Of a stretch of DNA of 55,093 nucleotides, positions 22,261 through 53,685 are shown piece by piece (the stretch's first letter is position 1; each line of letters begins with the position of its first letter). The DNA comes from Deltaproteobacteria bacterium RIFOXYD12_FULL_55_16. GTDB lineage: Bacteria > Desulfobacterota > Desulfobulbia > Desulfobulbales > Desulfurivibrionaceae. Location: contig MGTC01000035.1 of assembly GCA_001799255.1 (NCBI GenBank), forward strand, positions 65,024 through 120,116. The letters are read 5' to 3'. The position numbers and the translations under genes are program-made. Under the pieces are notes generated by a model. That model was not told the DNA's origin. It saw nothing but the letters and a program-made list of their open reading frames with translations, and did no database searches.

Positions 22261-23592
22261 TTAATCTTTAGCGTGACACTTGTTGCACAGAGAACGCTGG
22301 GCAACGGCAAAGTCGGTAGACGGCTTGTTGTAGTAAGCAGCGAGCTGCTGATCAGTGTTCAAACCTGCCGTGGCCTTATAAGCGCCAGCAGTGTCGGTCA
22401 GCAATTCGTTGTTGACCTGGTCCCAACGGAGCATGCTTTCAAAGCCGGAAGCATGGGCGCGATGGCAGGAGAGACACATTACGTTGGCGGTGGCATCCGG
22501 GCCAGCGGTGGTGGCTTGCAGAGCGGTAAGAGCAGCGCGGCCAGCGGCGTCACCGATAGCGCCGGTCTCAAAGGCTACCAGGTTCAGGTTGGCGGTTGCC
22601 TGGCTGCCGGTCATGTCGCCGGTTTTCTTGTAAGCATTGTAGTTAGCAGCAATGGTAGCGCCCAGCTTGTTGCCGTTGCTTGCAGGATGCACGCCCATGG
22701 CGCCGGAGGTCTGGCTGGAGGTGCTGTGCATGGCGGTATGACAGTTGGCACACCACTCGGACATACCGGAGCCGTAAGCAACGCGTACACCGGCGGTGGC
22801 GCCAAGGGTAGTGGTGTTATAGGTGCTAGGGGCAAGAGCCACCGGAGGAGCGGCGGTAAAGGTCTTGTCAATACCAGCGTTGGTCAGAGACTTGGGGTTG
22901 TAGCCAACACCAGCCAGGAAACGGTAAACGCCAAGGTCATAAGCGCCGGTAGCTGCGGTAGTGGTGCTGGCATAAGAGCCAGAAGCGCCAATGGGCTTGC
23001 CAGTAGTGGTGGTCGCGCCTGCCGCATCTATCCGGTACTTGCCATGGGGATCATGACAGGAAGAACAGGCGAGGCGGGTATTAGGATAAGTACCGCCAGG
23101 AGCGACGGTCAGGGTTGCGTCAGCAGCCATGCTGAAGTCTGCGGCAACGATGTTGTGGCCGCGACGGTTGTTCCTGGTGGTATTACCCTGGCAGTCAACC
23201 ATGGTCCAGGAAAAGTCGCCACCCGGGCTCATCTGCTGCGGGACGCTGTTAGTAGTGGCGCCCTCGGTTTTGACATGGTAGGAACTGGTAGAGCTGCCAT
23301 CGCCATGACAGTTCAGACAGGCCGAGCTGGCGTCAGTGCCTTGGAGCAGCATGGTCTGAACAGAGGTGTTGCTGTTGGCGGTCTTAGAAGAAAGGTCGCC
23401 CGTGGTACCGATCATGGTCTTGCCGGAAAAGGAGTTATGCATGGTGTGACAGGACTCACATTTTGCAACACCACCAGAATGGAAGGCATTAGCCTGACCA
23501 ACCAGACCGAGGGTAAGAACACCTGCGCCAACCACAACACCAAGGGTCAAGATACTCGTTCCTGCAACAACCAGCTTCATCTGCTTCTTCAT
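22261..23592 (-). CDS. omcS: OmcS-type hexaheme nanowire cytochrome
   Basis: Mature N-terminus FHSGGVAKCESCHTMHNS and C-terminus QRSLCNKCHAKD closely match Geobacter OmcS as recalled; 6 CxxCH; start 23592 follows a GGAGGA RBS. Confidence 0.93.
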   Translation of the reverse strand: MKKQMKLVVAGTSILTLGVVVGAGVLTLGLVGQANAFHSGGVAKCESCHTMHNSFSGKTMIGTTGDLSSKTANSNTSVQTMLLQGTDASSACLNCHGDGSSTSSYHVKTEGATTNSVPQQMSPGGDFSWTMVDCQGNTTRNNRRGHNIVAADFSMAADATLTVAPGGTYPNTRLACSSCHDPHGKYRIDAAGATTTTGKPIGASGSYASTTTAATGAYDLGVYRFLAGVGYNPKSLTNAGIDKTFTAAPPVALAPSTYNTTTLGATAGVRVAYGSGMSEWCANCHTAMHSTSSQTSGAMGVHPASNGNKLGATIAANYNAYKKTGDMTGSQATANLNLVAFETGAIGDAAGRAALTALQATTAGPDATANVMCLSCHRAHASGFESMLRWDQVNNELLTDTAGAYKATAGLNTDQQLAAYYNKPSTDFAVAQRSLCNKCHAKD

Positions 23593-23621
23593 TTCTACAT
23601 CCTCCGGAATATTTTCCTTTG

Positions 23622-23702
23622 TTCCCGGTAGCCCGGCCATCCTGCTTGCAGAATCCGTCGGCTTTGTGTCCCCGCCTTACGACGGGTTTACCTTTTTCGG
23701 AA
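23622..23702 (-). ncRNA. GEMM-I (cyclic dinucleotide, c-di-GMP-I class) riboswitch
   Basis: Minus strand CCGAAAAAGGTAAACCCGTC-GTAA-GGCGGGGACACAAAGCC...GGCCGGGCTACCG: GYAAAC / GNRA loop / GACRCAAAGCC core. Confidence 0.9.
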
Positions 23703-30510: not shown

Positions 30511-30514
30511 TCTT

Positions 30515-37147: not shown

Positions 37148-37163
37148 GCCTTCCCTCCATAAT

Positions 37164-37391: not shown

Positions 37392-40300
37392 TCAAAGCTC
37401 ATGCTGGCCCTTCTGGTGGCAGCGAGTGCAAAGCACCCGGCGCATATTGCCACGGGTGAGTTTTTCATGATCAGAGGAGTGAGGATCATGGCAGCTCGCG
37501 CAGTCTATGAAACGCCCGGTCACTGCGTCCACATAAGGGCTTTTTCCCATGCCGTGCATGTGGGTTTGTTCAACCTTTTCATGGCACTGGAGACAAAGTG
37601 ATTTCATCTCCTTGGCCAGGAGCTTGGCCTGGCTGCCGCTATGAGCAAGATGACAGGTTCCGCAGCCCTCTTCGACCGCAGCATGCTTGTTTTTCTTGCC
37701 CATTATCTCCCTGTCGTGACAGTCGTAGCACAGGGCCGGAGAACTCCTCAGCAGTAGAGGCTTGGCCGCAGCCGCATGAGGAGAGTGACAGGTCAGGCAT
37801 TCCTTGCCGGAGGAAACAGGAGAATGCCGCACATCCCCTTCAAAGCCCTTCTTTCTGGCGACTTCATGGCAGTCCCAGCAGAGGGCTGGCACCTGCTTGC
37901 GCAACGCCTTGCTTCCCTCTGCGGCATGACAGGACACACACTTTTCTTCCGCATAGGGTTTATGCGCGAAGATGCCCTGATTAGCCTTGCTCCCTTTGAC
38001 GCCGCCATGGGGATCATGGCAACTGCTACAGTTGACGTCCGAGATATCGATGCCATGGTGCTTAGGTCTCAGCTTGACGGCATCATGACACTTAAAACAA
38101 AGAAGGGGAATACTCTTAGCCAGCAGCCTCTTGTTATTGGTGCCGTGCGGATCATGGCAGGCAGCGCAATTGCCGTCGGCTACCGGTTTATGCAATGATC
38201 TGTCAGCAAGTTTTTTCTTGAAGTCCTCATGACAGCTGAAACATAGGTCCTTGCCGGTCATTGCCAGCAGCCCCTTGTTGCTGGCGGAATGGTGGGCATG
38301 GCAGGCCACACAGTTGCCGTCCGCCAGCGGTTTGTGCTGGAACCTTCTCTCGGGGATGTCCGCCTTATCGCTGTGGCAGATGAAACAGAGTTTGGCGCCT
38401 TTTTTCACCAGCAACTTGTCCGCCGAGGCTGCGTGGGGATCATGGCAGGAAACGCAATCGCCACTCTTCACCGGCGCATGGACAACCGCGGCTTTAATAA
38501 TGTCTTTCTTGTCGTGACACTCGAAACAGAGCTTTTCCTTGGGCACGAGCAGGATGACAGCGCCTGCCGCGCCGGACGGCGCATGACAGGCGGCGCAGCC
38601 TCCATCCTTGAACGGTTCGTGCACCTTGCTCTTCAGCAGTTTTTTATTCGTGGAGGCATGAGGATCATGACAGGTTGCGCAATTGGATTTCTTGCTCGCC
38701 AGATTTTTATGCGCGCTACTGAGTTGTTCCTTGGCCAGATTATGACATCTGGAGCAGAGTTCGCCCACAGGCTTGACCAGCATCCCAGGGTTGGCGGTGC
38801 CGTGCGGGTCGTGGCAGACATTGCATTTTCCCAGTTGCACCGGAGAATGCACCGTCCCTTCCTTGAATCTTTTCTCTTCCTCCTTATGGCAGGAATAACA
38901 AAGTACTGTGCCCGCAGCGCTCAGCCCCTTCTCAAAATCTGCCGCATGCGGATTATGACAGCCCGTGCAATCGCCACGCGCCACAGGAGTATGCACATTC
39001 GCTGCGGCAAACGCCTGAGTCATTCCACCATGGCAGGTCAGGCAGAGGGTTTTCTGTTTATCACTCAGCAAGGCGCGGTTGTTGCTGCCATGGGGGTTGT
39101 GACAGCCGCCACAATCTTCCTGCGCCGGCGGATGCGGATATTTTTTCGTAAGAGTCTTTTTCAGCTCCGCATGGCAACTGAGGCAAAGCTCCTTGCCCAC
39201 AATCTTGGTCAACCCCTTACCCTCTGACCGGTGCGGCGTATGGCAGGCCGAGCAGCCCTTCTCCACCAGCGGCTTATGGGTATAGCGTGAACCGGCCTGC
39301 GCCTTTACTGCGGGGTGGCAACCGGCGCAGAGAGTGATCTCGACCGCCTTGAGCAGTTTTGGCGACAAAGCGCTGTGGGGCAGGTGGCAGGTCAGACAGC
39401 CATTTTTATCGAGCGCCAGGTGAAGGGTGCCGGGGCGCGCCAGCTCCTTGCTGATCTTGTCATGGCAGGACAGGCAGAGCTCCTTGCCCGCAGTCTTCAG
39501 CAGCACCTTGTTCGCGGAGCCGTGCACATCATGACAGGCGGCGCACTGGCCTGCCGCCAGAGGAGCGTGAACCTGCGGCTTGCTGAATTCGGCCTGCAAG
39601 GGCAGATGACACTCAAGACAGAGAACCTTCATCCCGCTCTTGAGCAGCGGCCGCACCGCGCTTTTATGAGGAGCATGGCAGACCATGCAATCTCCCTCCT
39701 TGGCCGGATAATGGATAACGGGTTTCACGGTCTGTTTGCTGATCTCATCATGACACCCGACACACAGCTCTTTCACTGGCGCGGTCAGGGAGTTCGCCCT
39801 GGCCGGCACGCTCGCGTGACAGATCGCACAGTCCCCCTGGGCGTATGGCCCATGAATTTCGGGCAGAACAGCGCTGGCTTTTACAGTGGCATGCGGGTCA
39901 TGACAATCGGCGCACAGCTGTTTCTGCACCGCCGCAAGATTATGGGGGGGCTTGACGATTGCCGCCTTGGCATGGCAGGTAAAACAGAGGTCATTGCCCT
40001 TGGCGACCAGCAGGCGATCCTGGTCGGTCGCGTGAGCAGGATGACACCTGGCGCATTCTCCCTTGGCGAAAGGCTGATGAATGCCAGCAAAAGACATTTT
40101 GGCCTTGAGCTGCAGATGGCAGGTAAAACAGACCGAGGTTTTGTCCTCCGTATCCCGGAGCAGATTTTTCGCATTCGAGGCGTGGGGGTTGTGGCAGGCG
40201 GTGCATTTCCCTTGCTTCACCGGGGCATGCACGGTCTTTTTATCGAAATTGGCCTTGCTTTCCTCATGGCAGGAAAAACACAGGGCCGCGCCTTCCTTTT

Positions 40301-40517
40301 TCAGGACAAGCCGGTTGGCAAAGCCATGCCGCTTGTGGCAGATTTCACAGTTCCCTTTGCCGACTGGCGCGTGGACAAAGGTTTTCACATGGGCCGCCTG
40401 GGCTTTTTTGTGACAGTCGTAACAGGTTTTTTCTGCGGCCAGACAGTTGCCAGCCCCTGAAATCATGAACCCGATCAGCGACAAAACCAGAATCTTCCAA
40501 GATCTTTCCATTCTCAC
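37392..40517 (-). CDS. 42-heme c-type cytochrome (doubled-CXXCH repeat family)
   Basis: 42 CxxCH counted in 1041 aa; signal peptide. Confidence 0.92.
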   Translation of the reverse strand: MRMERSWKILVLSLIGFMISGAGNCLAAEKTCYDCHKKAQAAHVKTFVHAPVGKGNCEICHKRHGFANRLVLKKEGAALCFSCHEESKANFDKKTVHAPVKQGKCTACHNPHASNAKNLLRDTEDKTSVCFTCHLQLKAKMSFAGIHQPFAKGECARCHPAHATDQDRLLVAKGNDLCFTCHAKAAIVKPPHNLAAVQKQLCADCHDPHATVKASAVLPEIHGPYAQGDCAICHASVPARANSLTAPVKELCVGCHDEISKQTVKPVIHYPAKEGDCMVCHAPHKSAVRPLLKSGMKVLCLECHLPLQAEFSKPQVHAPLAAGQCAACHDVHGSANKVLLKTAGKELCLSCHDKISKELARPGTLHLALDKNGCLTCHLPHSALSPKLLKAVEITLCAGCHPAVKAQAGSRYTHKPLVEKGCSACHTPHRSEGKGLTKIVGKELCLSCHAELKKTLTKKYPHPPAQEDCGGCHNPHGSNNRALLSDKQKTLCLTCHGGMTQAFAAANVHTPVARGDCTGCHNPHAADFEKGLSAAGTVLCYSCHKEEEKRFKEGTVHSPVQLGKCNVCHDPHGTANPGMLVKPVGELCSRCHNLAKEQLSSAHKNLASKKSNCATCHDPHASTNKKLLKSKVHEPFKDGGCAACHAPSGAAGAVILLVPKEKLCFECHDKKDIIKAAVVHAPVKSGDCVSCHDPHAASADKLLVKKGAKLCFICHSDKADIPERRFQHKPLADGNCVACHAHHSASNKGLLAMTGKDLCFSCHEDFKKKLADRSLHKPVADGNCAACHDPHGTNNKRLLAKSIPLLCFKCHDAVKLRPKHHGIDISDVNCSSCHDPHGGVKGSKANQGIFAHKPYAEEKCVSCHAAEGSKALRKQVPALCWDCHEVARKKGFEGDVRHSPVSSGKECLTCHSPHAAAAKPLLLRSSPALCYDCHDREIMGKKNKHAAVEEGCGTCHLAHSGSQAKLLAKEMKSLCLQCHEKVEQTHMHGMGKSPYVDAVTGRFIDCASCHDPHSSDHEKLTRGNMRRVLCTRCHQKGQHEL

Positions 40518-40577: not shown

Positions 40578-41243
40578 CTATCGTTGGCCAAAGGCGGCGG
40601 CGCAGGAGCGCGCCAACTCGATGGCGACTTCTGCGGCCAGTTCATTGATGGATTTAATCCTGCCAATCCCAAAGACGACTTCCTTGTCGTTACCAGTGCG
40701 GTTGACATTGGCCGCCCAGACAATATTACCGGTCTGCGTCTCAAGAATCCGCACACTGATGGCCACCACCGGACTTTCCCCGGAGCCTCCCGCCCCGGAG
40801 AAACGCTTCACCTCGTACTCATGCACCACGCTCAACATGAGCAGATCGACCCCGAGATCCTTTCCCAGCTTGATGACGGTTTCCTTCGACATACTGGTGG
40901 CAAGCCTTACCCTGGCTTCCGACAGTACCGCCGAAACCTGGCCTGGCTCGACAATGGTAAAGATTGGGAAGCGGAGGAACTCCACCAGCACCAGATTCTC
41001 CATGGTCTTGGAAGCTCCCTGAGCCGCGCTCAGATTATCGAAAGGCAGAATCGCCATTTTCCCGGCCTTGAAACTGTCGCTGACATAAGGCCGCATGACA
41101 ACCTTGGAACATCCGGCCAGCGGCAGAGAGAAGACCAGCAGATAGAGCGAAAGAAAACAAAATCGCCTGATAAAGCTGAGTCGAGCAGCTTGCTTGCTCA
41201 AACGAAACTTATCTCCTTTGGGGATAACAGCACTTGCACACAT
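40578..41243 (-). CDS. PelC/CsgG-like lipoprotein
   Basis: Lipobox LAGC; MAILPFDNLS...GVDLL...V.EY...TGNIVW. Confidence 0.7.
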   Translation of the reverse strand: MCASAVIPKGDKFRLSKQAARLSFIRRFCFLSLYLLVFSLPLAGCSKVVMRPYVSDSFKAGKMAILPFDNLSAAQGASKTMENLVLVEFLRFPIFTIVEPGQVSAVLSEARVRLATSMSKETVIKLGKDLGVDLLMLSVVHEYEVKRFSGAGGSGESPVVAISVRILETQTGNIVWAANVNRTGNDKEVVFGIGRIKSINELAAEVAIELARSCAAAFGQR

Positions 41244-41299: not shown

Positions 41300-41926
41300 T
41301 TATTTCAGGCCTTCCAGCACGTCAAAAAAACTCTTCGGATACGCACTCTCAAAAAAGTTGCTGGCCATATCCTTGCAGATCTTCTGACTCAACTGCCCAA
41401 GGGTAAACGATTCACCGATGCTGACGATGGGGAGATTGGGCCCGCCGACCGCGCTCACCGTATTCTGCCAGACTATGGTTCCCGTAGGGGCGTCGATGAA
41501 TTTCAAGGTCATCGAAATCATGGGATACTGCTCCCCGCCAAGCTGGATCATCTTATAATCGTGAACCGTTCCCATGAAAAGCCCCTGCACCCCCGCCACC
41601 TGAGCAATCTGACCCAGATGGGTTGGGCTCAGCTCCTGACTGACGCCCGGCCCTGATATTTTGGCGACCTGGGCGACCACCCCGTTAAGCTGGCCGGTAT
41701 CCATCACCGCCAGGTTCCCCCAGATAAGCAGCTCGGTTATGAAATTCTCGATCAGCTTCTCCCCGGCAAAACGGTCTTCAGCCTGGTTGGTAAAGGGAAG
41801 CACGCCGACCTTCTGATAAAAGCTGAAATCCGACTCGGGATGAATAAAACTCCGGCTCTTGGTCATCGTACTGCACCCCGTGGCCAGGAACAGAAAAACC
41901 AGCAATATCCCCCATTTTTTTTTCAT
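41300..41926 (-). CDS. PelC/CsgG-like lipoprotein
   Basis: Lipobox LATGC; VGVLPFTN...GVQGLFMGTVHDY...TGTIVW; resembles 17446..18069. Confidence 0.7.
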   Translation of the reverse strand: MKKKWGILLVFLFLATGCSTMTKSRSFIHPESDFSFYQKVGVLPFTNQAEDRFAGEKLIENFITELLIWGNLAVMDTGQLNGVVAQVAKISGPGVSQELSPTHLGQIAQVAGVQGLFMGTVHDYKMIQLGGEQYPMISMTLKFIDAPTGTIVWQNTVSAVGGPNLPIVSIGESFTLGQLSQKICKDMASNFFESAYPKSFFDVLEGLK

Positions 41927-41965
41927 TGCTCTCACTCTGCACGTTTCGTTAATAGAATGACGCCT

Positions 41966-42097: not shown

Positions 42098-42102
42098 GCC
42101 TG

Positions 42103-43914
42103 CTAGAAGGATTTGCTCAAAGTGGCCCTGAATAAATGCGTCTGGTCTTCGCTGAACAATTGCGTGGTGCCGTATGTCAGTCCCAGGCTGATTCTTTTAA
42201 ACAGCGATATACTGACCCCCCCAAAAAAATTGTCCGTTGCCTTAAGAGCGGTAAATGTTTTACTGTAACTGCCAGTAAACTGATGGCCACGAAAGAAGCG
42301 GTAGGACATGCTCGCCGTGGTCGAGTAACTTGCCGCGCCAGTTTGCGGCAAGTTGGCCGAACCGCTGAGACTGTAACTGGTGCGCAGATTCGGCCTGTAG
42401 CTGAACGAACTGGTGGCGGTTCGGCTGCCGAGTTCCAGAAGATCAAGTTTCTCGGCGTTGGAATTTGCGGCAAGAGAAAGTGCCAGCGAGGTCTTGTCCG
42501 TAGGGATCATGTTGAACTGCACCGTCTTGGACACCGTGAACTGCTCGGTGAGCAGCACAAAATGAACAGGCAGCGACCAGTCAGTGGCATTATTCGTATT
42601 CACTAACTTAGTATAAAGTTCATTATTGATCGTGTCAAAAAAGGTGAAGCCGACCGGTCTGTCATTATAAAGATTCCGGTCGGCAAACGTTCCGGAGGCG
42701 CCAAAAAGTCTGGTATTGACAAAGCCGGGATTCTCGCTTCTACCGACATTGAAGTTGACCCGGGCGGAGATTCTGGGGGTTAGATCCATAGTCGAGTTGA
42801 GGCTGAAGCCATCCCTGATGTTGTCCCCCTGCTCTGGATCGAACTCGGCGCTGCGGGAGAGATTCAAACCCACCTGAATCTCGTCCCGCAGTCTGTCTGA
42901 AAAGGTAGCCGCCACTGTTCTGTAGTCCACGCTGCGCGTCAGCGCCACATCATCAAAGGTCCTGTTTCCCAGAGTTGCCGTAAATTGCAGGGAGGGAAAC
43001 GGGGAGAGCCTACCCGACACATCTATCGTCTGGCTGCCGGTGCTGGTGCCGGTAACAGCAAGCGTGCCCGTAGAATCTGCGAGGTCCTTTCTGAAATTTC
43101 CCGTCACCCCCAACCATTCCAGCGGGCTGCTGTTGAGATTCAAGCTCAGACCCTTGCTCGTATTCGTGGTCTGCTCCCCCCTCGAGCCCTGACTGGTGCT
43201 CTGATTAAGACTCACATCACCAGACAGCGTGGTCTGCGGCAAGATCTCGTAACTGCCGCCAGTTCCGAAAAAAATGGAATCAGAGGAAAAACTCAGGACT
43301 CCCTGGGAAAAACTTTCCTGGGTTGAATACCCGCCCCGGAAGTTCAGCCACTCGTACTGGTAATCCCCGAACAGGGAGATCGTGTCGGTCTGGGCCTCAT
43401 TGTTCCTTATCCCGGAAGTTGTGGTCTTGGTAGTGGTGTAATCGGCCGCAAGGCGCGGCAGATCCTGCGGCGCCAGACTGAACGCGGCCCTGGAGATTTT
43501 GGTGTCGACCAGATCCGCATTGGCGCTGAGAGTTGCATAGTTGCTGTGCCGCATATTGAAGCCGTATGAATCTCCGGTAAGATCAACCCCCAGGTTGCCA
43601 AAGGGCGCAGCGTTCCAACTCCCACTCCACAGGCTCTCCTTGCCCGAATCGATGAAATTAATCTTGGCATTGAGGAGGAGGCCAAGCCGTTTCGTCATCA
43701 CAGGGACTAGATCAAAATTAAGGCCTGCCTGAAAAAGATTGGAGCTGCTTTCAGGAGTAGTCACCTTGGTGTCTTCCATAGAAAAAGAGCCGCTCAATTT
43801 GGGGATGGCCGATCCCGACACGGGAAAAAAGAACAGAAGCGCCTGGGCCAGCAACGCAAACAGGAAGTATGGCAAAAGCCGCCTTCGGTAATCATCGCGG
43901 ATAGTTGACGACAT
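42103..43914 (-). CDS. Outer-membrane beta-barrel protein
   Basis: Signal peptide, S/T/G/F-rich alternating strands, C-terminal LFRATLSKSF; exact start uncertain (43914 or 43929). Confidence 0.75.
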   Translation of the reverse strand: MSSTIRDDYRRRLLPYFLFALLAQALLFFFPVSGSAIPKLSGSFSMEDTKVTTPESSSNLFQAGLNFDLVPVMTKRLGLLLNAKINFIDSGKESLWSGSWNAAPFGNLGVDLTGDSYGFNMRHSNYATLSANADLVDTKISRAAFSLAPQDLPRLAADYTTTKTTTSGIRNNEAQTDTISLFGDYQYEWLNFRGGYSTQESFSQGVLSFSSDSIFFGTGGSYEILPQTTLSGDVSLNQSTSQGSRGEQTTNTSKGLSLNLNSSPLEWLGVTGNFRKDLADSTGTLAVTGTSTGSQTIDVSGRLSPFPSLQFTATLGNRTFDDVALTRSVDYRTVAATFSDRLRDEIQVGLNLSRSAEFDPEQGDNIRDGFSLNSTMDLTPRISARVNFNVGRSENPGFVNTRLFGASGTFADRNLYNDRPVGFTFFDTINNELYTKLVNTNNATDWSLPVHFVLLTEQFTVSKTVQFNMIPTDKTSLALSLAANSNAEKLDLLELGSRTATSSFSYRPNLRTSYSLSGSANLPQTGAASYSTTASMSYRFFRGHQFTGSYSKTFTALKATDNFFGGVSISLFKRISLGLTYGTTQLFSEDQTHLFRATLSKSF

Positions 43915-45250
43915 AGGACTTGGAACCATGACAGGTCGAGGTACAGGATCCTCCTGCCGCAGTCATGCTGAAATTTCTAAGACCGGGATTTCTGCCAATA
44001 ACGATCAGCGCCCCGAATTGCGGGGAACCGTGGGATTCATGACAGGCATAACAGGAGAGGCGCTGCTGCCCCACATGCCAGACATGTTTGCCGAACCTGC
44101 TGTACGCCTGCTGGGCGGGCGCAGAAAGGGTGTCGGCATAGGTCGCGAAACTATGGCACCTGAAACAGAGATCGTCCCGGTTGCTGACTCTGCCAAGACC
44201 CTGCGTCTCGTAAGCGCTTTTGAGGAGCTTCGGAAACCTGGAGCCATGCGGCCCACGGATATCCGTTTCGTCGGAGCCATGACAATCACTGCAATGCACC
44301 AGGCTGAAGGAGTTCAAACCTCCCGCGAAAGAGAGCAGATTGATGTTGGCATTCTTCCCCTGCGCCTCCACCGGATGGAAGGAGGCGTTGGCTGGATTCA
44401 GCAGCAGGGCAATGTCCTGCTGCCCAGGTGGCTGCCGGGTCCAGGAGGAGTGGCATTTATAGCAGAGCTGATATTCCAGCAGCGGGGTGCTGTTGTCCCT
44501 TGCCGACACATATTCATAACGGGGCACAATGCCGGGGCCATTGTTCGTGACCCTGATTCTGCCAACCAGGGCATTCCGTCTGGAGGCTGCTGGCGCGATG
44601 GGCGGCACTGCGTCGCCGACAACGGCATGGGCGTTATGGCAGTCGCTGCAGTCGGCGTGCCGGTTGCCGCCTGAATACGAATAACGGGCGGGATCATCCG
44701 GGCCTGCGCTGTTAATCCGAGACATTCCCCTGTGGCTGTAAGGTTTGCGTATTTCCCTGGCAATGTCCTTCGTGGCCTTGCTTCCGTTATGGCAGGTAAG
44801 ACACAGGCTCTCCTCCCGGATACTCAGCAGACCGGAGATCTTGCCGATGCGGTCCTGTCGGCCATGAGGGTTATGACAGTTGAGGCATTTCCCGGCCGCA
44901 TTTGGTTCCCTGCGGGCGGAGGGAGTTGGCCCCGGCCAGATAAAGCGGGCGTCTGTCTTGTGGGCGGAAACCTCGTAAGCCGCACGGCCAGGATAACCGC
45001 CGGAAAGATTCTCCGCCGCATGACAGGCGTAGCAGAGATCGTTGTCGTTTTCCCGCCAGAGTTCTTTGGGAAATCTGGCCTTGCCGGAAACATGGCACTG
45101 ACGGCAGGAGCCCCTGGCCAGGGCCTGCTCCCGCTGGGGCCCGGTCAACGGATTGCCGTGCCCGGTCTCACTGTAGACCCCGGCTCCGGCCAGAGTCAGG
45201 CCACCAAGCAGGATCAGGAGAAGAAACGAAATTGCGGAAATTTTTCTCAT
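43892..45250 (-). CDS. Multiheme cytochrome c (9 CxxCH plus 1 CxxxCH)
   Basis: 9 canonical motifs and C-terminal CTSTCH; signal peptide. Confidence 0.88.
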   Translation of the reverse strand: MRKISAISFLLLILLGGLTLAGAGVYSETGHGNPLTGPQREQALARGSCRQCHVSGKARFPKELWRENDNDLCYACHAAENLSGGYPGRAAYEVSAHKTDARFIWPGPTPSARREPNAAGKCLNCHNPHGRQDRIGKISGLLSIREESLCLTCHNGSKATKDIAREIRKPYSHRGMSRINSAGPDDPARYSYSGGNRHADCSDCHNAHAVVGDAVPPIAPAASRRNALVGRIRVTNNGPGIVPRYEYVSARDNSTPLLEYQLCYKCHSSWTRQPPGQQDIALLLNPANASFHPVEAQGKNANINLLSFAGGLNSFSLVHCSDCHGSDETDIRGPHGSRFPKLLKSAYETQGLGRVSNRDDLCFRCHSFATYADTLSAPAQQAYSRFGKHVWHVGQQRLSCYACHESHGSPQFGALIVIGRNPGLRNFSMTAAGGSCTSTCHGSKSYVVNYPR

Positions 45251-45264
45251 CCCATCTTTTTCCA

Positions 45265-46311
45265 TCAAAAATTATGGCACTGCTGACAGCCGGAATTAGC
45301 ATCTGCGGGGCTGCCGCTTTCTTCCAGAGGCCAGACCAGGCCTTTCTTGTATTTACCGCCATGGGCCAGATGGCAACTGGCACAGATGACCTGGTTGCTG
45401 ACCCCAACCGTGGTCGCCGTGGCAAAGCTCGTGGCGTTTGCAACCTGAAAGCGCAGCCGTGGCACCCCTTCCTCGGTATCGCCAGTGACAGTGCCGAACC
45501 CGGAGCCGGTTCCGGCAGACCAATGGGCGGTGTCAACATTACTATAACCGGAGCCGTTGAGCGAAACATCGCTGAAATGATGCACCCGGTTGGAGGTGGT
45601 GTTGGCCGTCGGCTTAAGCAGCTCATGGCATTCGGCGCACCACAGGGAGGTCTTTGCCTTGTAGCCCTCGTTGGACTCCTTGTAAGCGGCGATGGAGCCC
45701 GTTGCCGAAGGGGGATCGCCTGGAGGGGAGGAACGAAAGACATCCTCGGCCATCAGGGGGGTAATCCCTGTCCCGCCTACGGGCGCGACCAGGAGATTAC
45801 GGTAACTGGCCGTGCCGTGCGGGTCATGGCAGGAGGCGCAGGAAAGGGTCATATTGGTCTTGGCGCTGTGAGGAACCGTGGCCGCGTTGACGCCCAGGTC
45901 GTGGCCGTTGACATTGGCTGTGCCGCTGGCGACGAAAAATCCGCCCCCTGAATGTTCATCGCCGCTGTTCTGATACATGGAAACGGAATCCAGAACATCC
46001 GGGGCGGTGGGGTCGCTGCCATCATGGCAGAACAGGCAGAGTTTATTGGTGGTACTCCGAATCCGCAGCTGTTGAAAAGGGCCGCCCGGCTCCGTCTTGC
46101 CTGGCCTCTGGCCGTCCTCGCTGTAATGCAGGGAATGACAGTCGTTGCACGGCTGTCTGTTGTTGGCAAGATCATGATAAAAGGCCGCGACCGCTTTGCT
46201 CGCCGACATCAACCCGGCGAGAAGAACAGCGGCGAAACCGTAAGCCAGAATGGCTCTGAGACAGAGGCGCCCCCCCGCCGTCTTGTTAGAAGTTGTCCCT
46301 CTGTTCATCAC
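45265..46311 (-). CDS. Short divergent OmcS-like hexaheme cytochrome
   Basis: AFYH...CNDCHSLH, GGGF...GHD, CASCHDPHG..YR.L, WCAECH, CASCHLAHG, CQQCH: 6 CxxCH in OmcS order. Confidence 0.8.
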   Translation of the reverse strand: MMNRGTTSNKTAGGRLCLRAILAYGFAAVLLAGLMSASKAVAAFYHDLANNRQPCNDCHSLHYSEDGQRPGKTEPGGPFQQLRIRSTTNKLCLFCHDGSDPTAPDVLDSVSMYQNSGDEHSGGGFFVASGTANVNGHDLGVNAATVPHSAKTNMTLSCASCHDPHGTASYRNLLVAPVGGTGITPLMAEDVFRSSPPGDPPSATGSIAAYKESNEGYKAKTSLWCAECHELLKPTANTTSNRVHHFSDVSLNGSGYSNVDTAHWSAGTGSGFGTVTGDTEEGVPRLRFQVANATSFATATTVGVSNQVICASCHLAHGGKYKKGLVWPLEESGSPADANSGCQQCHNF

Positions 46312-47339
46312 AGATCACTCACCTGAAAGATTTGAATCCGCTCCGCGCCCTTCTCAAGAACATACAACATGCCCTTCTCGCCAAAACAAAGATCAACCGG
46401 GAAGAAAAATCCCCCGGTATCAATCTCCAGCCTGCCGTAATTAAAAAGGTGCCTGCCATCCAGGGAAAAAACTCTCAGCCGGTGCTGAAAGGCGTCGGCG
46501 ATCCAGAGACGGCCCTTGGCATCCACGGCAAAACCGGTGGGAAAAGAGAAGATGTTGCTGCGCTCGGACGCCTCGCCATGGTCGCCAAAGGCCAGCAACG
46601 GAACCCCGGTCTGATCGAAGATATGCACCGCCCTGCCGTAAGCGCTGAGGCCGATGATTTTATCATTTACCACGGCGGCCTTCTGCAGGTAGGCAAATCC
46701 TCCCAGCGCCTGCAGGAAATCCCCCTGGAGGTTGAAGACCAGAATCTCATGGGCCCTGAGGTCGGCGATATAGAGGCGCCCATCCTGACCGATGGTGATC
46801 CGGCCAGGGGAAACCGGCCTGCCCACAACCAGGGAAAGGTCGATCCGATCCATCAGCGCCCCCCCCGGACTGAGTACCTTCAGCAGCCCGGTCTGAACCT
46901 CGCTGAGATAGATCCGGCCCGTCTCATCGAGAGCGACCCCGTACGGAGCGGTCAGCCCTACTTCCCGGCCGGCCTTGTTTACCAGGAAGCCCTTCGCATC
47001 CAGGATGATCAGCTCGCCGGAGCCGAAGCTCGTGATAAACAAATCGCCGTTTTTGACATCGCGGGCCAAGGCCAGCGGAGAGTACAGCAGCTTTTCACCA
47101 CCAACATTCTGGAAGGTCGCCAATCTGGTGATTTTCGGGGCCGCATATATAACTTCAGCGGTCGCAGTCGCTTTATTAACCTCAGGCGCCGCTTTCTTGA
47201 CCTCAGGTGCCGCTTTCTTGACCTCAGGCGACGCTTTCTTGACCTCAGGCGACGCAGCCCCGGCAATCAGACAGGGAAAAAGGAGGGCCAGCAACAACGC
47301 CAAGGCCCGGAAGCGATTTTTCCCTTTCCTGCTCATCAT
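46308..47339 (-). CDS. NHL-repeat protein with N-terminal PEVKKA repeats
   Basis: Signal peptide; PYGVALD, FSFPTGFAVD...WIAD, FFFPVDL repeats. Confidence 0.85.
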   Translation of the reverse strand: MMSRKGKNRFRALALLLALLFPCLIAGAASPEVKKASPEVKKAAPEVKKAAPEVNKATATAEVIYAAPKITRLATFQNVGGEKLLYSPLALARDVKNGDLFITSFGSGELIILDAKGFLVNKAGREVGLTAPYGVALDETGRIYLSEVQTGLLKVLSPGGALMDRIDLSLVVGRPVSPGRITIGQDGRLYIADLRAHEILVFNLQGDFLQALGGFAYLQKAAVVNDKIIGLSAYGRAVHIFDQTGVPLLAFGDHGEASERSNIFSFPTGFAVDAKGRLWIADAFQHRLRVFSLDGRHLFNYGRLEIDTGGFFFPVDLCFGEKGMLYVLEKGAERIQIFQVSDL

Positions 47340-47361
47340 GCCCTGCTCCAGGTCAAAACTC

Positions 47362-48294
47362 TCAAAACTCATTGATCCGAAATACCCTGATCAAGCCCGT
47401 GCCCTGCTCCAGCACATAGAGAAAACGATCGGCATCGAGCGTCAGATCCACAGCGGAGAGAAACGCCAATCTTCCCCCCTGGCTGAAGGGATAATCAAGA
47501 AGGAGATTGCCAAAGGTATCAAACACCTTGAGGCCCAGATTCGCCTCCTCCAGCACCCAGAGCCGTTCCCGGCGGTCAACCGCCAGAGCCTTGGCCCGCA
47601 ACGGCGTCGGAAACCGCCCCGGATCGGCGCCCAGGGTCCGCAACCTCCGGCCCTGCCCGTCATACACCCGGATCCCCCCGAAGCCGGGATCAGCGACATA
47701 AATCGTGTTGGCGCCGACCGCGACATCACTGGGATCCCCTATATCCGCAAGGGCGAACCTGAACCTCTGCTGCCGGTCGAGGACCAGAACCTGCCGGTTG
47801 CCGCGATCCACCACATACAGATTTCCCTCCCGATCCACATCCAGGGCAATGGCCTGCACCGCTGCCCGTTGCCGGTACGCGGAGAGATTCAGGTCGTGAA
47901 ATTCCTCACCGACGCCAGAATCATACTGCGACAAAACCTTGATGATTTCACTGTCCTGCATGGCCACAAACAGGGTGGAGTCCTTGCCGGCCGCCACTGT
48001 CCGAGGACGACGAAGATTGCCCGCCCGCCCCATGATCTTGAAGCTGTCGCCTTCCCGGCTGAGAAGATCAACGCGATGCGCTTCGGTGTTGGCAACAATG
48101 AAAAGACCGCGATAGGTGTCATAAACAAAGCCCTGGGGGGCCAGGAGCCCGCGCTCGGTTCCTCTGGGAGCAATAACCTCCATCTCCTCCAGACTCAAGG
48201 AAAAGCAGGGCGCAACACCAAGATGCAGCAGAAACAGAACCAGTCCTGTGCGCAGCGCCGGGCCGGGCCGGAATCCGGAGCGGGAAAGTCTCAT
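47362..48294 (-). CDS. NHL-repeat protein
   Basis: Signal peptide; LDVDREGNLYVVDRGNRQV and PSDVAV...YVADP repeats. Confidence 0.85.
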   Translation of the reverse strand: MRLSRSGFRPGPALRTGLVLFLLHLGVAPCFSLSLEEMEVIAPRGTERGLLAPQGFVYDTYRGLFIVANTEAHRVDLLSREGDSFKIMGRAGNLRRPRTVAAGKDSTLFVAMQDSEIIKVLSQYDSGVGEEFHDLNLSAYRQRAAVQAIALDVDREGNLYVVDRGNRQVLVLDRQQRFRFALADIGDPSDVAVGANTIYVADPGFGGIRVYDGQGRRLRTLGADPGRFPTPLRAKALAVDRRERLWVLEEANLGLKVFDTFGNLLLDYPFSQGGRLAFLSAVDLTLDADRFLYVLEQGTGLIRVFRINEF

Positions 48295-50600
48295 TTACCA
48301 GGCTCCTTCTCGCCGGTTTTCTTCATGGCCGCAGCCGGAGCGGCCTCGGGCGCCGCCGACGCTTTGGGCAGGAGAGGCTGCTTGCCGGAACCATCACTGC
48401 CCATAACCATCAGCTTCTCGCTGTTGTCGGCCAGCGAGGTATAGACGATCACCCCTTCCTCCGGCAGCAGGGCCGGAAAGACTGCGCCGTCTTCGGTCAG
48501 CCGACGCAGGGTGGCGTCGGCGATATCCACCGAGTAGATATTGGGCACGCCATTATCCGGGATGGTAAAGATGATCCGGGTGTCATCGAAGTTGAAAAAG
48601 GGCAGGCTGGTGTATTCGGGCAGGTACACCTGAAACTGGCTGTCCACCATCTGGGAGTGGAGCATTTTCGGCTCGGAGCCGTCCGCCTTCATGACCCAGA
48701 GCTGACGAAGCAGGTGTTTATCCGCAAACACCGTCAGGGTGAAGGCGATCATCTCACCCCGCGCCGACCAGACCGGGTAGGAGGCCAGAGCCGGTTGCTC
48801 CTTGCCGACACTGTTGCGCTCGGCATAGCTGGTCAGCAGGGTTCGTTTCGTGCCGTCCGCATTCATAATACAAATATCGATCCGGTCGGTGAAGGCGATT
48901 TTTTTGCCGTCCAGGGACCAGCGCGGCTGCATGTATAGCTCCGGCGCATATTCGCTGGGCTCTTTGGGAAAACGCAGATCGGTCTGGACAAACTTGCTGT
49001 CCACCGCCTCCAGCATATAAAGGCCGGGGGTCTCGCCAAAAGCGGGGATGGAAATAAGAAGCACCTTATCCTCCTGGATGGAGACATCCGCTCCCAGGAA
49101 CTCCCGGTGATCTTTCTGACCGGGAAAATCGATCCCCCCCTGCTCAGTGAAGGCCAACAGCCCCCGACTGGAATAAACCAGCAGGCCGTCGCTTTGCGGC
49201 AACCAGAAAATCCGGGTGTCGGCGGTCTGAGCAATGCCCGGATAAGAGGCGAGCTCGACGCCTTGCCGGTTAACGATGGTCAAGGCGTCAACCCGTTCTT
49301 TATTGGTGAAATAGGCGATTTTGGCTGAATCCTGCGCAGGCGTCGGCAGCCAGGCGGAAGCCCTGCTGGGAGTAAGCCGGACCAGAGCTGCAGAGGCCAG
49401 GTCGAGGCTGAAGATTTCCGTGGTGTAGCTCACCGGCATGAGCCCGACCAGCGTTATCTTCCTGCCATCCGGAGCAAGAGCGAAATCAGACACCTGGAAT
49501 TCCGGCGGCGAAACCCGCCTTTCGCTGCCGGTGGCAAGGTCGAGATACCACAGGGAGTTAAGACCAACCCGGTTGAAAGCGACCTTTTCCTTCTTGTGCA
49601 GCGGGGCAGCAGCCTCTGCGTCCTTCGTTGGTTCGTCCGCTTGTTTTTCAGCCTCCTTTGGCGCCAACCAGGAGAACAGACCCTTAAGCAAGCCGAGCAA
49701 GCCTTCCGGCTCGGTCACTATCTCAATATCCTGACCAAGATAGTAAACACCCTTGCCAGACGTGTCCCAGAGAAGATCCCTGCCAGCCAGCCTCGGCGAA
49801 GGATAGCTCTTGATCCCACTGCCGTCGAGCAGCATGGTCTGCACTTCAAACTCTCCGGGGTTGACGGGGTATGGATAGGCCACCAGACCGACCTGGGGAG
49901 AATAAACCGGGGTGCCGATATACTTGCCCAGCAATGATTTGCTTTCCATGGTCGACAGGTCGATTTCCCAGATCCCGACGCCATAGCTGTGGCTGCCCGC
50001 CTCGTAATATATCTTCCGGCTGTCCGGATGCCAGAACAGGCTGCGGATCCCTATCTTTTCGGTAACCGCCTCAAGTCGCGCCCCGTCGGCGGTGCCGATC
50101 CAGAGATTCCTGACCTTATCCTTGCCAGGAACAGTAAGGGCAAACAGTTTGCCGTCCGGAGAATAGACCGGCAGGTCGGCGCCGGTCGGCAGGCTCGTCA
50201 GACTCATTTCCTCCCCGCCGCCATCGGCCGCGATGGTCATAACCTCGGCAAAGCCCTTGCGGACGGTGGTAAAGCGGAGCGAGGCGCCGTCCTCCGCCCA
50301 GCGAAAGTTCCGGATCCCCCGCGTGGTCAGCCTTCTGGCGCCAGTACCGTCCGCATTCATAACCCAGAGGTCAGTCGGGGCATGCAGGGTCGAGGAAAGG
50401 AAGGCGATTCTACCGCCGTCGGGCGAAAAGGCAGAGCTGAAGCCCCCGTTAGGGCCAGCCGCCTCGTTTTTCGGCGAAACAGACGCCACCGTCATAGTCC
50501 CGGGGCTGACGGCTGTTTCCTTTGCCTCGACCGTGGTCAGGGCGGACAAACAACAGGCCAGCGCCAACAGGGCGCTGAACAAAAAGTGCTTTTTCATCAT
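48291..50600 (-). CDS. TolB-like (PD40/WD40-like) multi-propeller exported protein
   Basis: Signal peptide; many FSPDG..IAF / P.WS.DG / MNADG repeats. Confidence 0.85.
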   Translation of the reverse strand: MMKKHFLFSALLALACCLSALTTVEAKETAVSPGTMTVASVSPKNEAAGPNGGFSSAFSPDGGRIAFLSSTLHAPTDLWVMNADGTGARRLTTRGIRNFRWAEDGASLRFTTVRKGFAEVMTIAADGGGEEMSLTSLPTGADLPVYSPDGKLFALTVPGKDKVRNLWIGTADGARLEAVTEKIGIRSLFWHPDSRKIYYEAGSHSYGVGIWEIDLSTMESKSLLGKYIGTPVYSPQVGLVAYPYPVNPGEFEVQTMLLDGSGIKSYPSPRLAGRDLLWDTSGKGVYYLGQDIEIVTEPEGLLGLLKGLFSWLAPKEAEKQADEPTKDAEAAAPLHKKEKVAFNRVGLNSLWYLDLATGSERRVSPPEFQVSDFALAPDGRKITLVGLMPVSYTTEIFSLDLASAALVRLTPSRASAWLPTPAQDSAKIAYFTNKERVDALTIVNRQGVELASYPGIAQTADTRIFWLPQSDGLLVYSSRGLLAFTEQGGIDFPGQKDHREFLGADVSIQEDKVLLISIPAFGETPGLYMLEAVDSKFVQTDLRFPKEPSEYAPELYMQPRWSLDGKKIAFTDRIDICIMNADGTKRTLLTSYAERNSVGKEQPALASYPVWSARGEMIAFTLTVFADKHLLRQLWVMKADGSEPKMLHSQMVDSQFQVYLPEYTSLPFFNFDDTRIIFTIPDNGVPNIYSVDIADATLRRLTEDGAVFPALLPEEGVIVYTSLADNSEKLMVMGSDGSGKQPLLPKASAAPEAAPAAAMKKTGEKEPGK

Positions 50601-50878
50601 TCTCCCTTTCCCGACGCTTGGTTGCTGATCCCAGGCGACCCGATCATAATCTTGCTCTCACAGGCCAAGATTCTCCATAACCTCAATCAGCTGAGTTGTC
50701 CTGATAATAAAAGTCATCCATTAAGCCATATCCAGTGAAGAAAACTTCACAAAAGCCTGACCTGCCTTCACCATTATGATGGGCCAGCAACAATGCGAAA
50801 ATCGCTTCAACCCCTCATCCTGGCGAAGAAAGGCCCTACCCGGCGAACCGGTTGCCTGTTGGCTCTATACACACAAAT

Positions 50879-50919
50879 ACCGTTCTGACGGCAGGGACGT
50901 ACCCCACCGTCAGAACGGT
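50879..50919 (-). terminator. Stem-loop downstream of the divergent hexaheme gene
   Basis: ACCGTTCTGACGG-N15-CCGTCAGAACGGT, a perfect 13-bp inverted repeat; minus-strand tail ATTTGTGTGT. Confidence 0.7.
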
Positions 50920-50961
50920 CACACTACAGAGACACTGCTTAAACCAAAAAAGCAGGCAGGA

Positions 50962-52353
50962 TTAGAAATTCTTCACGAAAGCCGTTGCTCCACCCTTCTG
51001 ATGACATTTGCCACAACCGTATGCAGGGTTGTCGCCTTCAGCGGGGCCTGCGCCAACGCCGCTAACCGCGCCATTGGGCAGGAAGGAATGGGCATTGGCA
51101 TCCCAACGGGTCATGTTGTCGTACTGAGAGGCATGGGCCTTATGACAGGTCAGACACATGATCCGGCTGGTGCCAACCGCAGTCCCGGAAGTTGCCCAGG
51201 AAGCTGTAGCGCTCTTGACGGTGAAGTCGGCATTGTCCTGAACCAGGGGGTAACGATAATCATAACCTACAGGGTTGGGGGCAGTGCCCTGGGCGTTGCT
51301 GACCTGCTTGGTGTAGGTGGTGATAGAGTATTTACTGCCGCTCGGGTTCGAGCTGTTGGTCATGGTAACACCGGTTTCGTTCATCTTCATGTTGGTCGGA
51401 TGACGCTGCCAGGTGAGGCCGATGTTGGTCTTGCCGTTATCCGTGGCCCGAGTCTCGCCAGTGCCGCCGTGGAAGTCGCCGTGACAGGCCGAGCAGAAGG
51501 AACTGAAGCCGCCACGGTAGACGTTCTTGTTGGTGTCGGACTCAGGAAGCAGCAGATCGGCGCCCTCCAGGGGATTGCCGTCAGCGCGGACATTATTGTA
51601 ATTCGTACCAATAATATTACCACGAGAGTTGGACATGATCGGCTCAAATCCCGCTGAGGTGGCGCCGGAGGTGCCGCCAGTGGTTTCAACGGTGCCGGCG
51701 GTCTCATTACCGGTTACCACCTTGCCGTTAACCTTACGTTTGACCTGCCGCCAAGCTGAGTAGGTGTCACTGAAACGAGAGTGCATGCCGTGGCAGGAGT
51801 GACAGGACCACTCGCCGTCGGTGATGGCAACGCCGCCGGGGGGCAAGGCCTTGAGGGTCGGGTCAGACGGCATCAGCAGAGAGGTGCCAGACCCGGTCAG
51901 GACTGCGCCCTTGGTGTAGGACGGGTTGTGACCCTTCTTCGCATCCTGCTTTGAGAAAAAGAAGTCGCCAGCCGGCATGGAACCGCCAGTATAGGTGCCG
52001 TTAATGGACATAACCGGGGGCGCTAACCAGCCGGTATTTTCAACGCCAGCCAGCAGCGCCGTGGCAGAGGTATTAGAACCCTCAGTATGACAAGAAAGAC
52101 ACATGTCAGTCCAGTCGCCGCGCTTCAACAACTCGCGGTTCAGCTGGGTGCCGCCAAGGGTAGTATTATTAATGGTCGCGCCGTTTTCGCTATTATGGAG
52201 AGTATGACAGTCGGTACAGATCAGGCCGTCGTAGGAGTGATACTGCGCGGTGTTGGGGCCGGCTTTTCCTGTCCCCTGTACACCAGGGGCTGCGGCGTAG
52301 GCTACTGCGGCTGTCAGGCCAACAAGGGATACGGTCAAGTAAATCTTTTTCAT
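50962..52353 (-). CDS. Highly divergent OmcS-family hexaheme cytochrome (candidate filament subunit)
   Basis: Signal peptide; YHSYDGLICTDCHTLHNS, AGDF, KGHN, CHSCHGMH, CSACH, RHP, CLTCHKAHAS...RWD, CGKCH; T/G/A/N-rich. Confidence 0.85.
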   Translation of the reverse strand: MKKIYLTVSLVGLTAAVAYAAAPGVQGTGKAGPNTAQYHSYDGLICTDCHTLHNSENGATINNTTLGGTQLNRELLKRGDWTDMCLSCHTEGSNTSATALLAGVENTGWLAPPVMSINGTYTGGSMPAGDFFFSKQDAKKGHNPSYTKGAVLTGSGTSLLMPSDPTLKALPPGGVAITDGEWSCHSCHGMHSRFSDTYSAWRQVKRKVNGKVVTGNETAGTVETTGGTSGATSAGFEPIMSNSRGNIIGTNYNNVRADGNPLEGADLLLPESDTNKNVYRGGFSSFCSACHGDFHGGTGETRATDNGKTNIGLTWQRHPTNMKMNETGVTMTNSSNPSGSKYSITTYTKQVSNAQGTAPNPVGYDYRYPLVQDNADFTVKSATASWATSGTAVGTSRIMCLTCHKAHASQYDNMTRWDANAHSFLPNGAVSGVGAGPAEGDNPAYGCGKCHQKGGATAFVKNF

Positions 52354-52384
52354 TTTTTTTCCTCCGAAAAAATTTCTTTTTTTG

Positions 52385-52464
52385 CTCTGACAACCCGGCC
52401 GTCCTGGATTCAGGACCCGATCGGTTTTGCGTCCCCCGGTTACCCGAAGTTTGCCTTTTCAGAG
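52385..52464 (-). ncRNA. GEMM-I (c-di-GMP-I class) riboswitch
   Basis: Minus strand CTCTGAAAAGGCAAACTTCGG-GTAA-CCGGGGGACGCAAAACC...GTCCTG-AATC-CAGGACGGCCGGGTTGTCAGAG. Confidence 0.9.
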
Positions 52465-52639
52465 GATGGTAAGGTGTTTCTCCAAGATGCTGCCTTACTG
52501 CTTCCTCCCCATTTTTCCGATAATCGCACCTCCTTTTTTCGTTATGAAACTAAGCCAATGATGAAGGCGCCCAAAACCATTACGCCCCGTTTTTTTACCA
52601 GCCTGCTATACCTGGCCTCCACCGTGGGCGGCCAGGCGC

Positions 52640-53632
52640 TCACCCTGCCGTTTTTCCTTCCTGTGGGAACTCGACTTCAAAAACCTGCACCCGTTTAAGC
52701 GCGGTTTCCAGAACAAAGAGCCGGTTGCCACCGTTCATGGCAAGCTTGCCCGGCATATAGAACTGACCGTAGTTCTTACCAAGGCCGCCGAACTCCTCGA
52801 CGAATTCGCCCTCTGCGTCATAACAGAGGACCTTGTTGCGCACCGTGCTGGTTACGAAGATATGGCCCTGATTATCGGTGGCCAGACCAGCAGGCCTGGC
52901 GATCAGGCCATAGATAACGCCGGGTTTGCCGATCCGCTGAAAATTCTGCTCCTTGCTGTCGTAGCGCACCACCGAATAGGGCCGCATGTCGGAAAACAGG
53001 AAGCGGCCAGCCCGATCCATGGAGAAGCCGAAGATCTGATTGGGCCCCTCCTCCGTATTCTTGCCCTCGACCTTGATCTCCGCATGGGTCTGCCCCTCGG
53101 GATCGAGTCTGACCACGCCGCCTCGGGATTTCATGGCATATACCGCGCCGTCCGGGCCACCGGACGCCAGATACAGAGGCCGCACCGCCTTGCCGCCTTT
53201 CTCGTCGCTGGCCCCAGCCAGATCCAGCACCGCAAGCGGCGCCCCCTTATAGTCCAGAACGCTGATTCTGCTGCTGTTGCTGTAGCCGACATAGATCCGG
53301 CCCGCAGCGTCGCTGGAGACCATCATCGGCGCGCCTTCCTTGGATTTAAGCGGAATCCGGCCCGTATACATCCCATTGACGTCATAAATCATGATTGCGC
53401 CGTACCCTGGGTCAACCACATAAAGCGCCCCGGATTGGGGGTCAAAAGCAAGGTCAATGGGGTTTTTCAGCAATTCGCTCCGGCTGCCGACATCTTCGAT
53501 GGCATAAAGAAAGGTCACCCGCATGACGCCGCGGTCCTGACCGGCGGCAAAGACCGGGGTCGCCTGAACTGCCAGAACAAAAAGGAGCAGCAGCACAAAA
53601 AATGTTTTTCCTGATTTCCGGTTTGCCTTCAT
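52640..53632 (-). CDS. NHL-repeat protein, first gene of cluster 2
   Basis: Signal peptide from MKANRK; PAGLATD..GHIFV and EFGGLG..YGQFYMP repeats; same position as 24244..25284 in cluster 1. Confidence 0.85.
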   Translation of the reverse strand: MKANRKSGKTFFVLLLLFVLAVQATPVFAAGQDRGVMRVTFLYAIEDVGSRSELLKNPIDLAFDPQSGALYVVDPGYGAIMIYDVNGMYTGRIPLKSKEGAPMMVSSDAAGRIYVGYSNSSRISVLDYKGAPLAVLDLAGASDEKGGKAVRPLYLASGGPDGAVYAMKSRGGVVRLDPEGQTHAEIKVEGKNTEEGPNQIFGFSMDRAGRFLFSDMRPYSVVRYDSKEQNFQRIGKPGVIYGLIARPAGLATDNQGHIFVTSTVRNKVLCYDAEGEFVEEFGGLGKNYGQFYMPGKLAMNGGNRLFVLETALKRVQVFEVEFPQEGKTAG

Positions 53633-53669
53633 TGCTCGCTCCGCCTCTGTTTCAGTTGACCAGTACCCT

Positions 53670-53685
53670 TGCAATCACCGTGCCA
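53670..53685 (-). promoter_or_regulatory. sigma54 promoter of cluster 2
   Basis: Minus strand TGGCACGGTGATTGCA matches the consensus. Confidence 0.88.

What the first reader, a model, noticed from the sequence alone, without database searches (positions are those of the whole stretch)
50962..52353. Divergent hexaheme keeps the OmcS ligand scheme, including the polymerisation histidine
Seen: YH-x6-CTDCHTLH has the same spacing as OmcS FH-x6-CxxCHTMH. All six distal His positions have equivalents (YH, TLH, KGHN, CHGMH, RHP, CHKAH), and the GDF and RWD motifs are kept, while the intervening sequence is barely alignable by eye. Known: His16 of mature OmcS (the TMH His) ligates a heme of the neighbouring subunit. 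Unlike OmcS, whose mature chain starts at F1-H2, this protein has about 17 extra residues (AAPGVQGTGKAGPNTAQ) after the predicted signal cleavage. Inference: a new filament subunit, possibly with a propeptide or an altered interface.
Basis: partly seen in the sequence, partly recalled or inferred. Interest (0 to 1): 0.86.

Follow-up and report, generated by a model that had tools for sequence, protein, structure and literature searches.

The report
Second OmcS-type nanowire subunit family
This gene encodes a six-haem protein, predicted to share the fold of the Geobacter 'nanowire' subunit OmcS, that heads its own conserved cluster of likely export genes and likely builds a second kind of conductive filament, while sister copies with swapped haem ligands may show how such wires are capped.

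The parts
50962..52353 (-). Hexahaem cytochrome P0001, 463 aa, predicted OmcS fold; likely major filament subunit
52294..52353 (-). Predicted Sec signal peptide, residues 1-20 (ends A-Y-A)
   Evidence: sequence, rule of thumb; no predictor run
52243..52293 (-). N-terminal extension A21-Q37; variable front part, conserved G-x-N-T-x-x core
   Evidence: model pLDDT 69 and 82 for the first two blocks of ten
52195..52197 (-). His53, equivalent of OmcS His16; inferred ligand to haem 5 of the neighbouring subunit
50995..50997 (-). Lys453 (last CxxCH +2; OmcS K406); Met in all 17 relatives lacking His53 and in 4 that keep it
50965..51000 (-). 12-residue C-terminal tail ending F-V-K-x-F; 11 or more residues in 99 of 101 members, 0 of 114 OmcS-lineage rows
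52386..52465 (-). GEMM-I (c-di-GMP-I, RF01051) riboswitch aptamer in the leader
   Evidence: 55.1 bits, cut-off 35; also upstream in 7 of 9 related loci scanned
50879..50919 (-). 18-bp hairpin with T-rich tail right after the gene; terminator-like
52640..53674 (-). NHL beta-propeller, related to the NHL gene upstream of the window's omcS
   Evidence: E 5e-16 pairwise
48291..50600 (-). TolB-like PD40 propeller protein, no peptidase domain found
47362..48294 (-). NHL beta-propeller
46308..47372 (-). NHL beta-propeller
45265..46311 (-). Second hexahaem, 348 aa; keeps all six OmcS-type distal His plus three more conserved His; candidate minor or adaptor subunit
   Evidence: 10 of 10 orthologues
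43892..45268 (-). Probable decahaem (9 CxxCH plus terminal CxxxCH); no His at +3 after the first motif; weakly MtrA-like; abuts the barrel gene
42103..43929 (-). Predicted outer-membrane beta-barrel, 608 aa
   Evidence: model look-alikes include MtrB/PioB and TIGR03016 barrels; no Pfam hit
41300..41935 (-). LpoB/CsgG-like lipoprotein, related to the 222-aa lipoprotein of the omcS cluster
   Evidence: E 2e-18
40578..41243 (-). CsgG-like lipoprotein
37392..40517 (-). 42-haem cytochrome, 1041 aa; aligns end to end with the 26-haem plus 16-haem pair of the omcS cluster
22261..23640 (-). Canonical OmcS homologue heading the first cluster (about 9491-25284), with its own GEMM-I riboswitch at 23623-23701; comparison only
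   Evidence: (E 7.4e-106)

Best explanation
The gene encodes a six-haem cytochrome with all twelve OmcS-type His ligand positions and a predicted OmcS fold, and it is likely the major subunit of a second cytochrome filament that would polymerise head to tail when His53 binds haem 5 of the neighbouring subunit. Inferred steps: the protein is exported by Sec and loaded with six haems in the periplasm (the genome has two CcsA-family genes). It is then passed out through the cluster's own barrel, lipoproteins and propellers. Eleven haem sites are filled within the chain; the twelfth, on haem 5, is filled by His53 of the next subunit. The N-terminal extension is likely kept in the mature protein, packing with the donor face, and the longer C-terminal tail likely extends the acceptor face, giving a remodelled interface rather than a propeptide. 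The decahaem, barrel and 42-haem cytochrome likely feed electrons from the periplasm. Output is likely switched by a cyclic dinucleotide through the riboswitch. Shown: sequence, conservation, gene context, riboswitch match and fold similarity of a model. Not shown: haem ligation, export, polymerisation, conductivity, expression.
Against: Only OmcS itself is known to form a wire among the four G. sulfurreducens OmcS-like hexahaems (PMC12977616, section 6), so fold plus ligands does not prove a filament. The His-loss/Met link rests on two independent events (sign test p 0.5), and AAG to ATG is a single-base change. In the OmcS lineage only 1 of 29 His-less rows has Met and 21 keep Lys, so the coupling is not general. 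Spare conserved His exist (H295 101 of 101, H422 91 of 101, H185 72 of 101) and could fill haem 5 within the chain. The models have no haems and I had no coordinates, so no His-Fe or Met-Fe distance was measured. Foldseek TM is only about 0.5 with rmsd 10.2. The cluster lacks the PPIase-domain gene of the omcS cluster, and the two barrels do not align by BLAST or phmmer. L010 has a different downstream order.
Confidence: 0.65

Rival explanations
1. It is not a homopolymer. It is a single or short-oligomer surface cytochrome of a porin-cytochrome conduit, in which His53 docks on a haem of another cluster cytochrome (348-aa hexahaem or decahaem), or a spare His fills haem 5 within the chain.
Against: H422 is absent from 6 of 7 basal members that keep His53 and Lys453, and present in 15 of 17 Met rows, where it would make Met redundant. 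H295 has an equivalent in OmcS. The riboswitch and hairpin bracket this gene alone, which fits a subunit made in excess (inference).
Confidence: 0.22
2. The extension is a propeptide that blocks the interface and is cut off on export, leaving a Tyr38-His39 start like OmcS.
For: 0 of 101 members have a signal-peptidase-like site directly before the aromatic-His, against 81 of 114 OmcS-lineage rows (crude rule). OmcZ is processed by a protease (PMC9473688). Model residue 18 (Tyr38) aligns with OmcS residue 1.
Against: Length runs from about 4 to about 21 residues, also among tandem paralogues at one locus. There is no conserved basic or other cleavage motif. The conserved core lies next to Tyr38 and relaxes with loss of His53. 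The segment is modelled at pLDDT 69-82. No peptidase domain was found in the cluster's genes, nor in 5 of 5 TolB-like orthologues. Long extensions also occur in near-canonical OmcS sequences P0175 and P0211.
Confidence: 0.1
3. The filament has an adhesion or biofilm-scaffold role, and electron conduction is incidental.
For: Cyclic-dinucleotide riboswitch control and CsgG-like lipoproteins. The physiological role of cytochrome filaments is disputed (PMC11077965, abstract start in search listing only).
Against: The cluster carries a 42-haem and a 10-haem cytochrome beside a barrel, a large investment in an electron path.
Confidence: 0.08

Closest known systems
OmcS of Geobacter sulfurreducens (GSU2504; PDB 6EF8, 6NEF)
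   Different: About 25% identity; 17-residue N-terminal extension; 12-residue C-terminal tail instead of 3; extra conserved His (H185, H422); a separate clade (101 of 101 rows on one side, support 99); filament not observed.
osc (omcS-companion) cluster, GSU2505-2493 (Shen 2025; not readable here, seen second-hand in PMC13194489 and PMC12977616), and its copy in this window at about 9491-25284
   Same: NHL gene upstream of the subunit, further propellers, barrel, CsgG/LpoB-like lipoproteins, very large periplasmic multihaem, second hexahaem.
   Different: TolB-like 769-aa propeller; 26-haem and 16-haem proteins appear as one 42-haem chain; an added decahaem beside the barrel; no PPIase-domain gene; barrels not alignable by sequence.
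DA_402 of Desulfurivibrio alkaliphilus (PMC12545173, passages and figure legend read)
   Different: Described with seven CX2-5CH motifs and a shifted haem 1 site; no named cultured organism appeared among the 111 subfamily hits. Direct comparison not done.
OmcE filaments and their clusters (PDB 7TFS; PMC13712944)
   Same: Intersubunit His-haem link; cluster of multihaems, propellers and barrel.

Membership tests
OmcS-type hexahaem filament subunit | Six CxxCH motifs in OmcS order | tested here: met
OmcS-type hexahaem filament subunit | Six distal His at OmcS-equivalent positions, including the His16 equivalent | tested here: met
   KGHN equivalence by order and motif, since HMMER placed a gap there
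OmcS-type hexahaem filament subunit | OmcS fold | tested here: met
   haem-free model:
OmcS-type hexahaem filament subunit | Haem 5 ligated by a His of the neighbouring subunit | tested here: inconclusive
   indirect covariation only; control lineage does not show it; no coordinates
OmcS-type hexahaem filament subunit | Forms a micrometre-long conductive homopolymer | not testable with these tools
   needs cryo-EM and conductivity
OmcS orthologue (strict) | Falls in the OmcS clade, with mature chain starting F-H and ending C-H-x-K-D | tested here: not met
   separate clade; both termini extended; the window's orthologue-like gene is 22261-23640
osc-type assembly cluster | Propellers, barrel, lipoprotein and large multihaem next to the subunit | tested here: met
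osc-type assembly cluster | PPIase-type chaperone gene in the cluster | tested here: not met
   Rotamase hit only at 15381-17303 in the first cluster; none in 37392-53674
GEMM-I riboswitch | Rfam RF01051 above gathering score | tested here: met
GEMM-I riboswitch | Ligand choice (c-di-GMP or 3',3'-cGAMP) | not testable with these tools
   G at the position I recall as G20, which would point to c-di-GMP or both; numbering recalled
Protease-matured filament (OmcZ type) | Processing protease encoded with the subunit | tested here: not met
   no peptidase family over its cut-off in the cluster; a protease elsewhere in the genome was not excluded

The most novel reading that the evidence does not exclude
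OmcS-fold wires are built like pili from a graded set of paralogues told apart by two positions: the donor His (OmcS His16) and the residue two after the last CxxCH (OmcS Lys406). His+Lys is the repeating subunit (P0001). His+Met or His+His caps haem 5 and ends or anchors the wire (4 rows here; 5 and 9 rows in the OmcS lineage). No-His+Lys starts it (21 rows). No-His+Met is a self-sealed monomer. This subfamily with its own export cluster would then be a second, independent OmcS-type wire system, and the code would name the missing anchor and tip subunits from sequence alone.
Probability: 0.3. Interest if true: 0.82.

Novelty: new variant of a known kind. Interest (0 to 1): 0.55.

Why it matters
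A second OmcS-type wire with its own export machine, side by side with a canonical one in a single genome, offers a natural comparison of what the subunit interface and the secretion cluster really need. How cytochrome wires start, stop and anchor is stated as open in PMC13712944 (Discussion). The Lys-to-Met/His swap gives named candidate caps and a one-residue test. The subfamily is rare and seen only in uncultured organisms among named records, so it also marks likely extracellular electron transfer that strict OmcS searches could miss.

Full report
Observation. The ORF at 50962-52353 (-) encodes 463 aa with six CxxCH motifs. Its only significant solved relative by sequence is OmcS, 6ef8 (E 2.8e-12; 2.2e-21 with the family profile). 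None of 20,000 shuffles reproduced the pattern. Seventeen residues separate a rule-of-thumb A-Y-A cleavage site from Tyr38.

Family. One search listed 120 of 121 hits: 111 relatives at 42-83% identity (E<=8.4e-85), then a drop to 3e-15. I aligned the query with 100 of them and dropped 11 fragments. On a 315-row FastTree all 101 lie on one side of a branch, support 99. Named records are MAGs of Nitrospirota, Desulfobulbaceae, Geobacteraceae, other Deltaproteobacteria, Krumholzibacteriota and Acidobacteriota. The gene was not found in 17 same-genus genomes; it was found in 1 of 200 genomes of the order and 0 of 400 of the phylum (samples, partly overlapping, some incomplete). The wider superfamily is large: 522 clusters at E<=1e-10 and 1,248 at 1e-3. 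A divergent OmcS-fold protein is therefore not surprising in itself, and one is in print as a predicted filament (DA_402; PMC12545173, passages and figure legend).

Context. A GEMM-I aptamer lies at 52386-52465 and an 18-bp hairpin right after the stop. Aptamers lie upstream in 7 of 9 related loci scanned (L001, L002 and L007 not scanned). Geobacter omcST is riboswitch-linked (PMC6456294, passages). The window holds a canonical OmcS (22261-23640, E 7.4e-106) with its companion cluster and its own aptamer. The finding heads a second cluster: NHL, subunit, TolB-like propeller, two NHL, 348-aa hexahaem, decahaem, barrel, two CsgG/LpoB-like lipoproteins and a 42-haem cytochrome. The NHL, lipoprotein and multihaem genes have pairwise matches in the first cluster; the barrels do not align and the PPIase gene has no counterpart. 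The order through the 348-aa hexahaem recurs in 7 of 11 genome loci. Three end too early and L010 differs (neighbours named mostly by length and sequence by eye, the TolB-like gene by Pfam in 5 loci). L016 and L018 show it too. The genome has two CcsA-family haem-attachment genes. The scan had noted this cluster in another genome (e1-695955); I had reached this reading before that look-up.

Is His53 the polymer ligand? Filman 2019 (PMC6584659, section 7) states that haems stack in sequence order, that 11 of 12 His ligands are intrachain, and that one, on haem 5, comes from the neighbour. That this is His16 is recalled. In the 101 rows the other five distal His are invariant. His53 is kept in 84: 80 have His53 with Lys453, 17 lack His53 and have Met453, and 4 have both His53 and Met. 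With those columns masked, the tree needs two losses of His53 and three gains of Met. Two events cannot reach significance (p 0.5), and Lys to Met is one base. Still, a haem-capable residue beside haems 5-6 appearing when a His at the other end of the chain disappears fits a ligand shared in trans (inference). The control is mixed. In 115 full-length rows around P0252 in the OmcS lineage, only 1 of 29 His-less rows has Met and 21 keep Lys; but 9 rows that keep the donor His have His, and 5 have Met, at that same position. Spare His could fill haem 5 within the chain. However, H422 is missing from 6 of 7 basal His+Lys rows and present in 15 of 17 no-His Met rows, and H295 has an OmcS equivalent.

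The extension. No member has a signal-peptidase-like site directly before the aromatic-His (0 of 101, against 81 of 114 OmcS-lineage rows and 58 of 92 representatives; crude rule). Length varies from about 4 to 21 residues, also among tandem paralogues. The core next to Tyr38 is conserved: Thr/Ser35 in 84 of 84 His-keeping rows and 4 of 17 His-less rows. In the main His-less clade 9 of 16 lost positions fall in residues 21-95, against 6 of 18, 5 of 13 and 2 of 18 in three His-keeping clades. The segment is modelled with pLDDT 69-82, and no peptidase family reached its cut-off in the cluster. Long extensions also occur in near-canonical OmcS sequences. A retained, structural extension fits better than a propeptide. 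The tail is 11 or more residues in 99 of 101 rows against 0 of 114; in a head-to-tail polymer it would meet the next subunit's N-terminal face (inference).

Novelty. It works like OmcS but is not an OmcS orthologue: a new variant of a known kind. The bolder reading is a two-position ligand code for repeat, cap and starter subunits (probability 0.3). PMC13712944 (sections 9 and 12 read) poses termination, anchor and tip as open and found no co-located candidate for OmcE. I saw no description of this subfamily or of the swap in the listings and passages. Shen 2025 could not be read, and Wang 2019 was not looked up; the osc gene roles come second-hand from PMC13194489 (passages). Other papers were seen as passages only: PMC12307469, PMC10954620, PMC9473688, PMC9094664. 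No supplements were read.

Verdict. Real, conserved and correctly spotted; filament likely but unproven; propeptide unlikely. Interest 0.55.

Noticed in passing
P0289, P0292, P0295, P0297, P0299, P0301, P0303, P0313, P0326: OmcS-lineage hexahaems ending C-H-V-H: donor His kept plus an extra His at the Lys406 position. They fit the 'one extra His' anchor proposed for OmcE in PMC13712944. Five more rows end in x-M-D.
   Followed up: partly
L004:1-4333: The His+Met paralogue P0080 lies directly behind an MtrB/PioB porin gene, about 5.7 kb upstream of the main subunit.
   Followed up: partly
L015:2211-3509: A no-His+Met paralogue (P0078) lies about 1.4 kb beyond the end of the large multihaem gene, on the opposite strand.
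   Followed up: no
window 37392-40517: A single chain with 42 CxxCH motifs, equal to the 26+16 pair of the omcS cluster.
   Followed up: partly
window 43892-45268: Decahaem lacks the +3 His in 72 of 72 close relatives, but 41 of 44 more distant relatives have it; those may be polymer-forming decahaems.
   Followed up: partly
window 9491-25284: Complete canonical omcS/osc-like cluster with riboswitch at 23623-23701. The Rfam match overlaps the longest ORF's start, so the true omcS start is probably the second or third Met.
   Followed up: partly
L001, L008 (three tandem paralogues); L004, L005 (two): Tandem paralogues all keep His+Lys but differ in extension length (about 16-18, 13 and 4 residues), so mixed filaments are possible.
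   Followed up: partly
G000:C77:13877-14914: A further orphan OmcS-like hexahaem (345 aa) whose first motif lacks the +3 His.
   Followed up: no
window 42034-42063: Short palindromic repeat found at high depth in unrelated contigs; REP-like.
   Followed up: no
window 25831-37267: Block of two-component and sigma-54-type regulators, a trihaem and a phosphonate-binding-like protein between the two clusters; similar regulators flank the cluster in L003, L004, L005, L008, L009 and L011.
   Followed up: no
P0147-type rows: Many OmcS-superfamily representatives have five CxxCH and lack the first H-x6 ligand, yet keep the TMH His.
   Followed up: no
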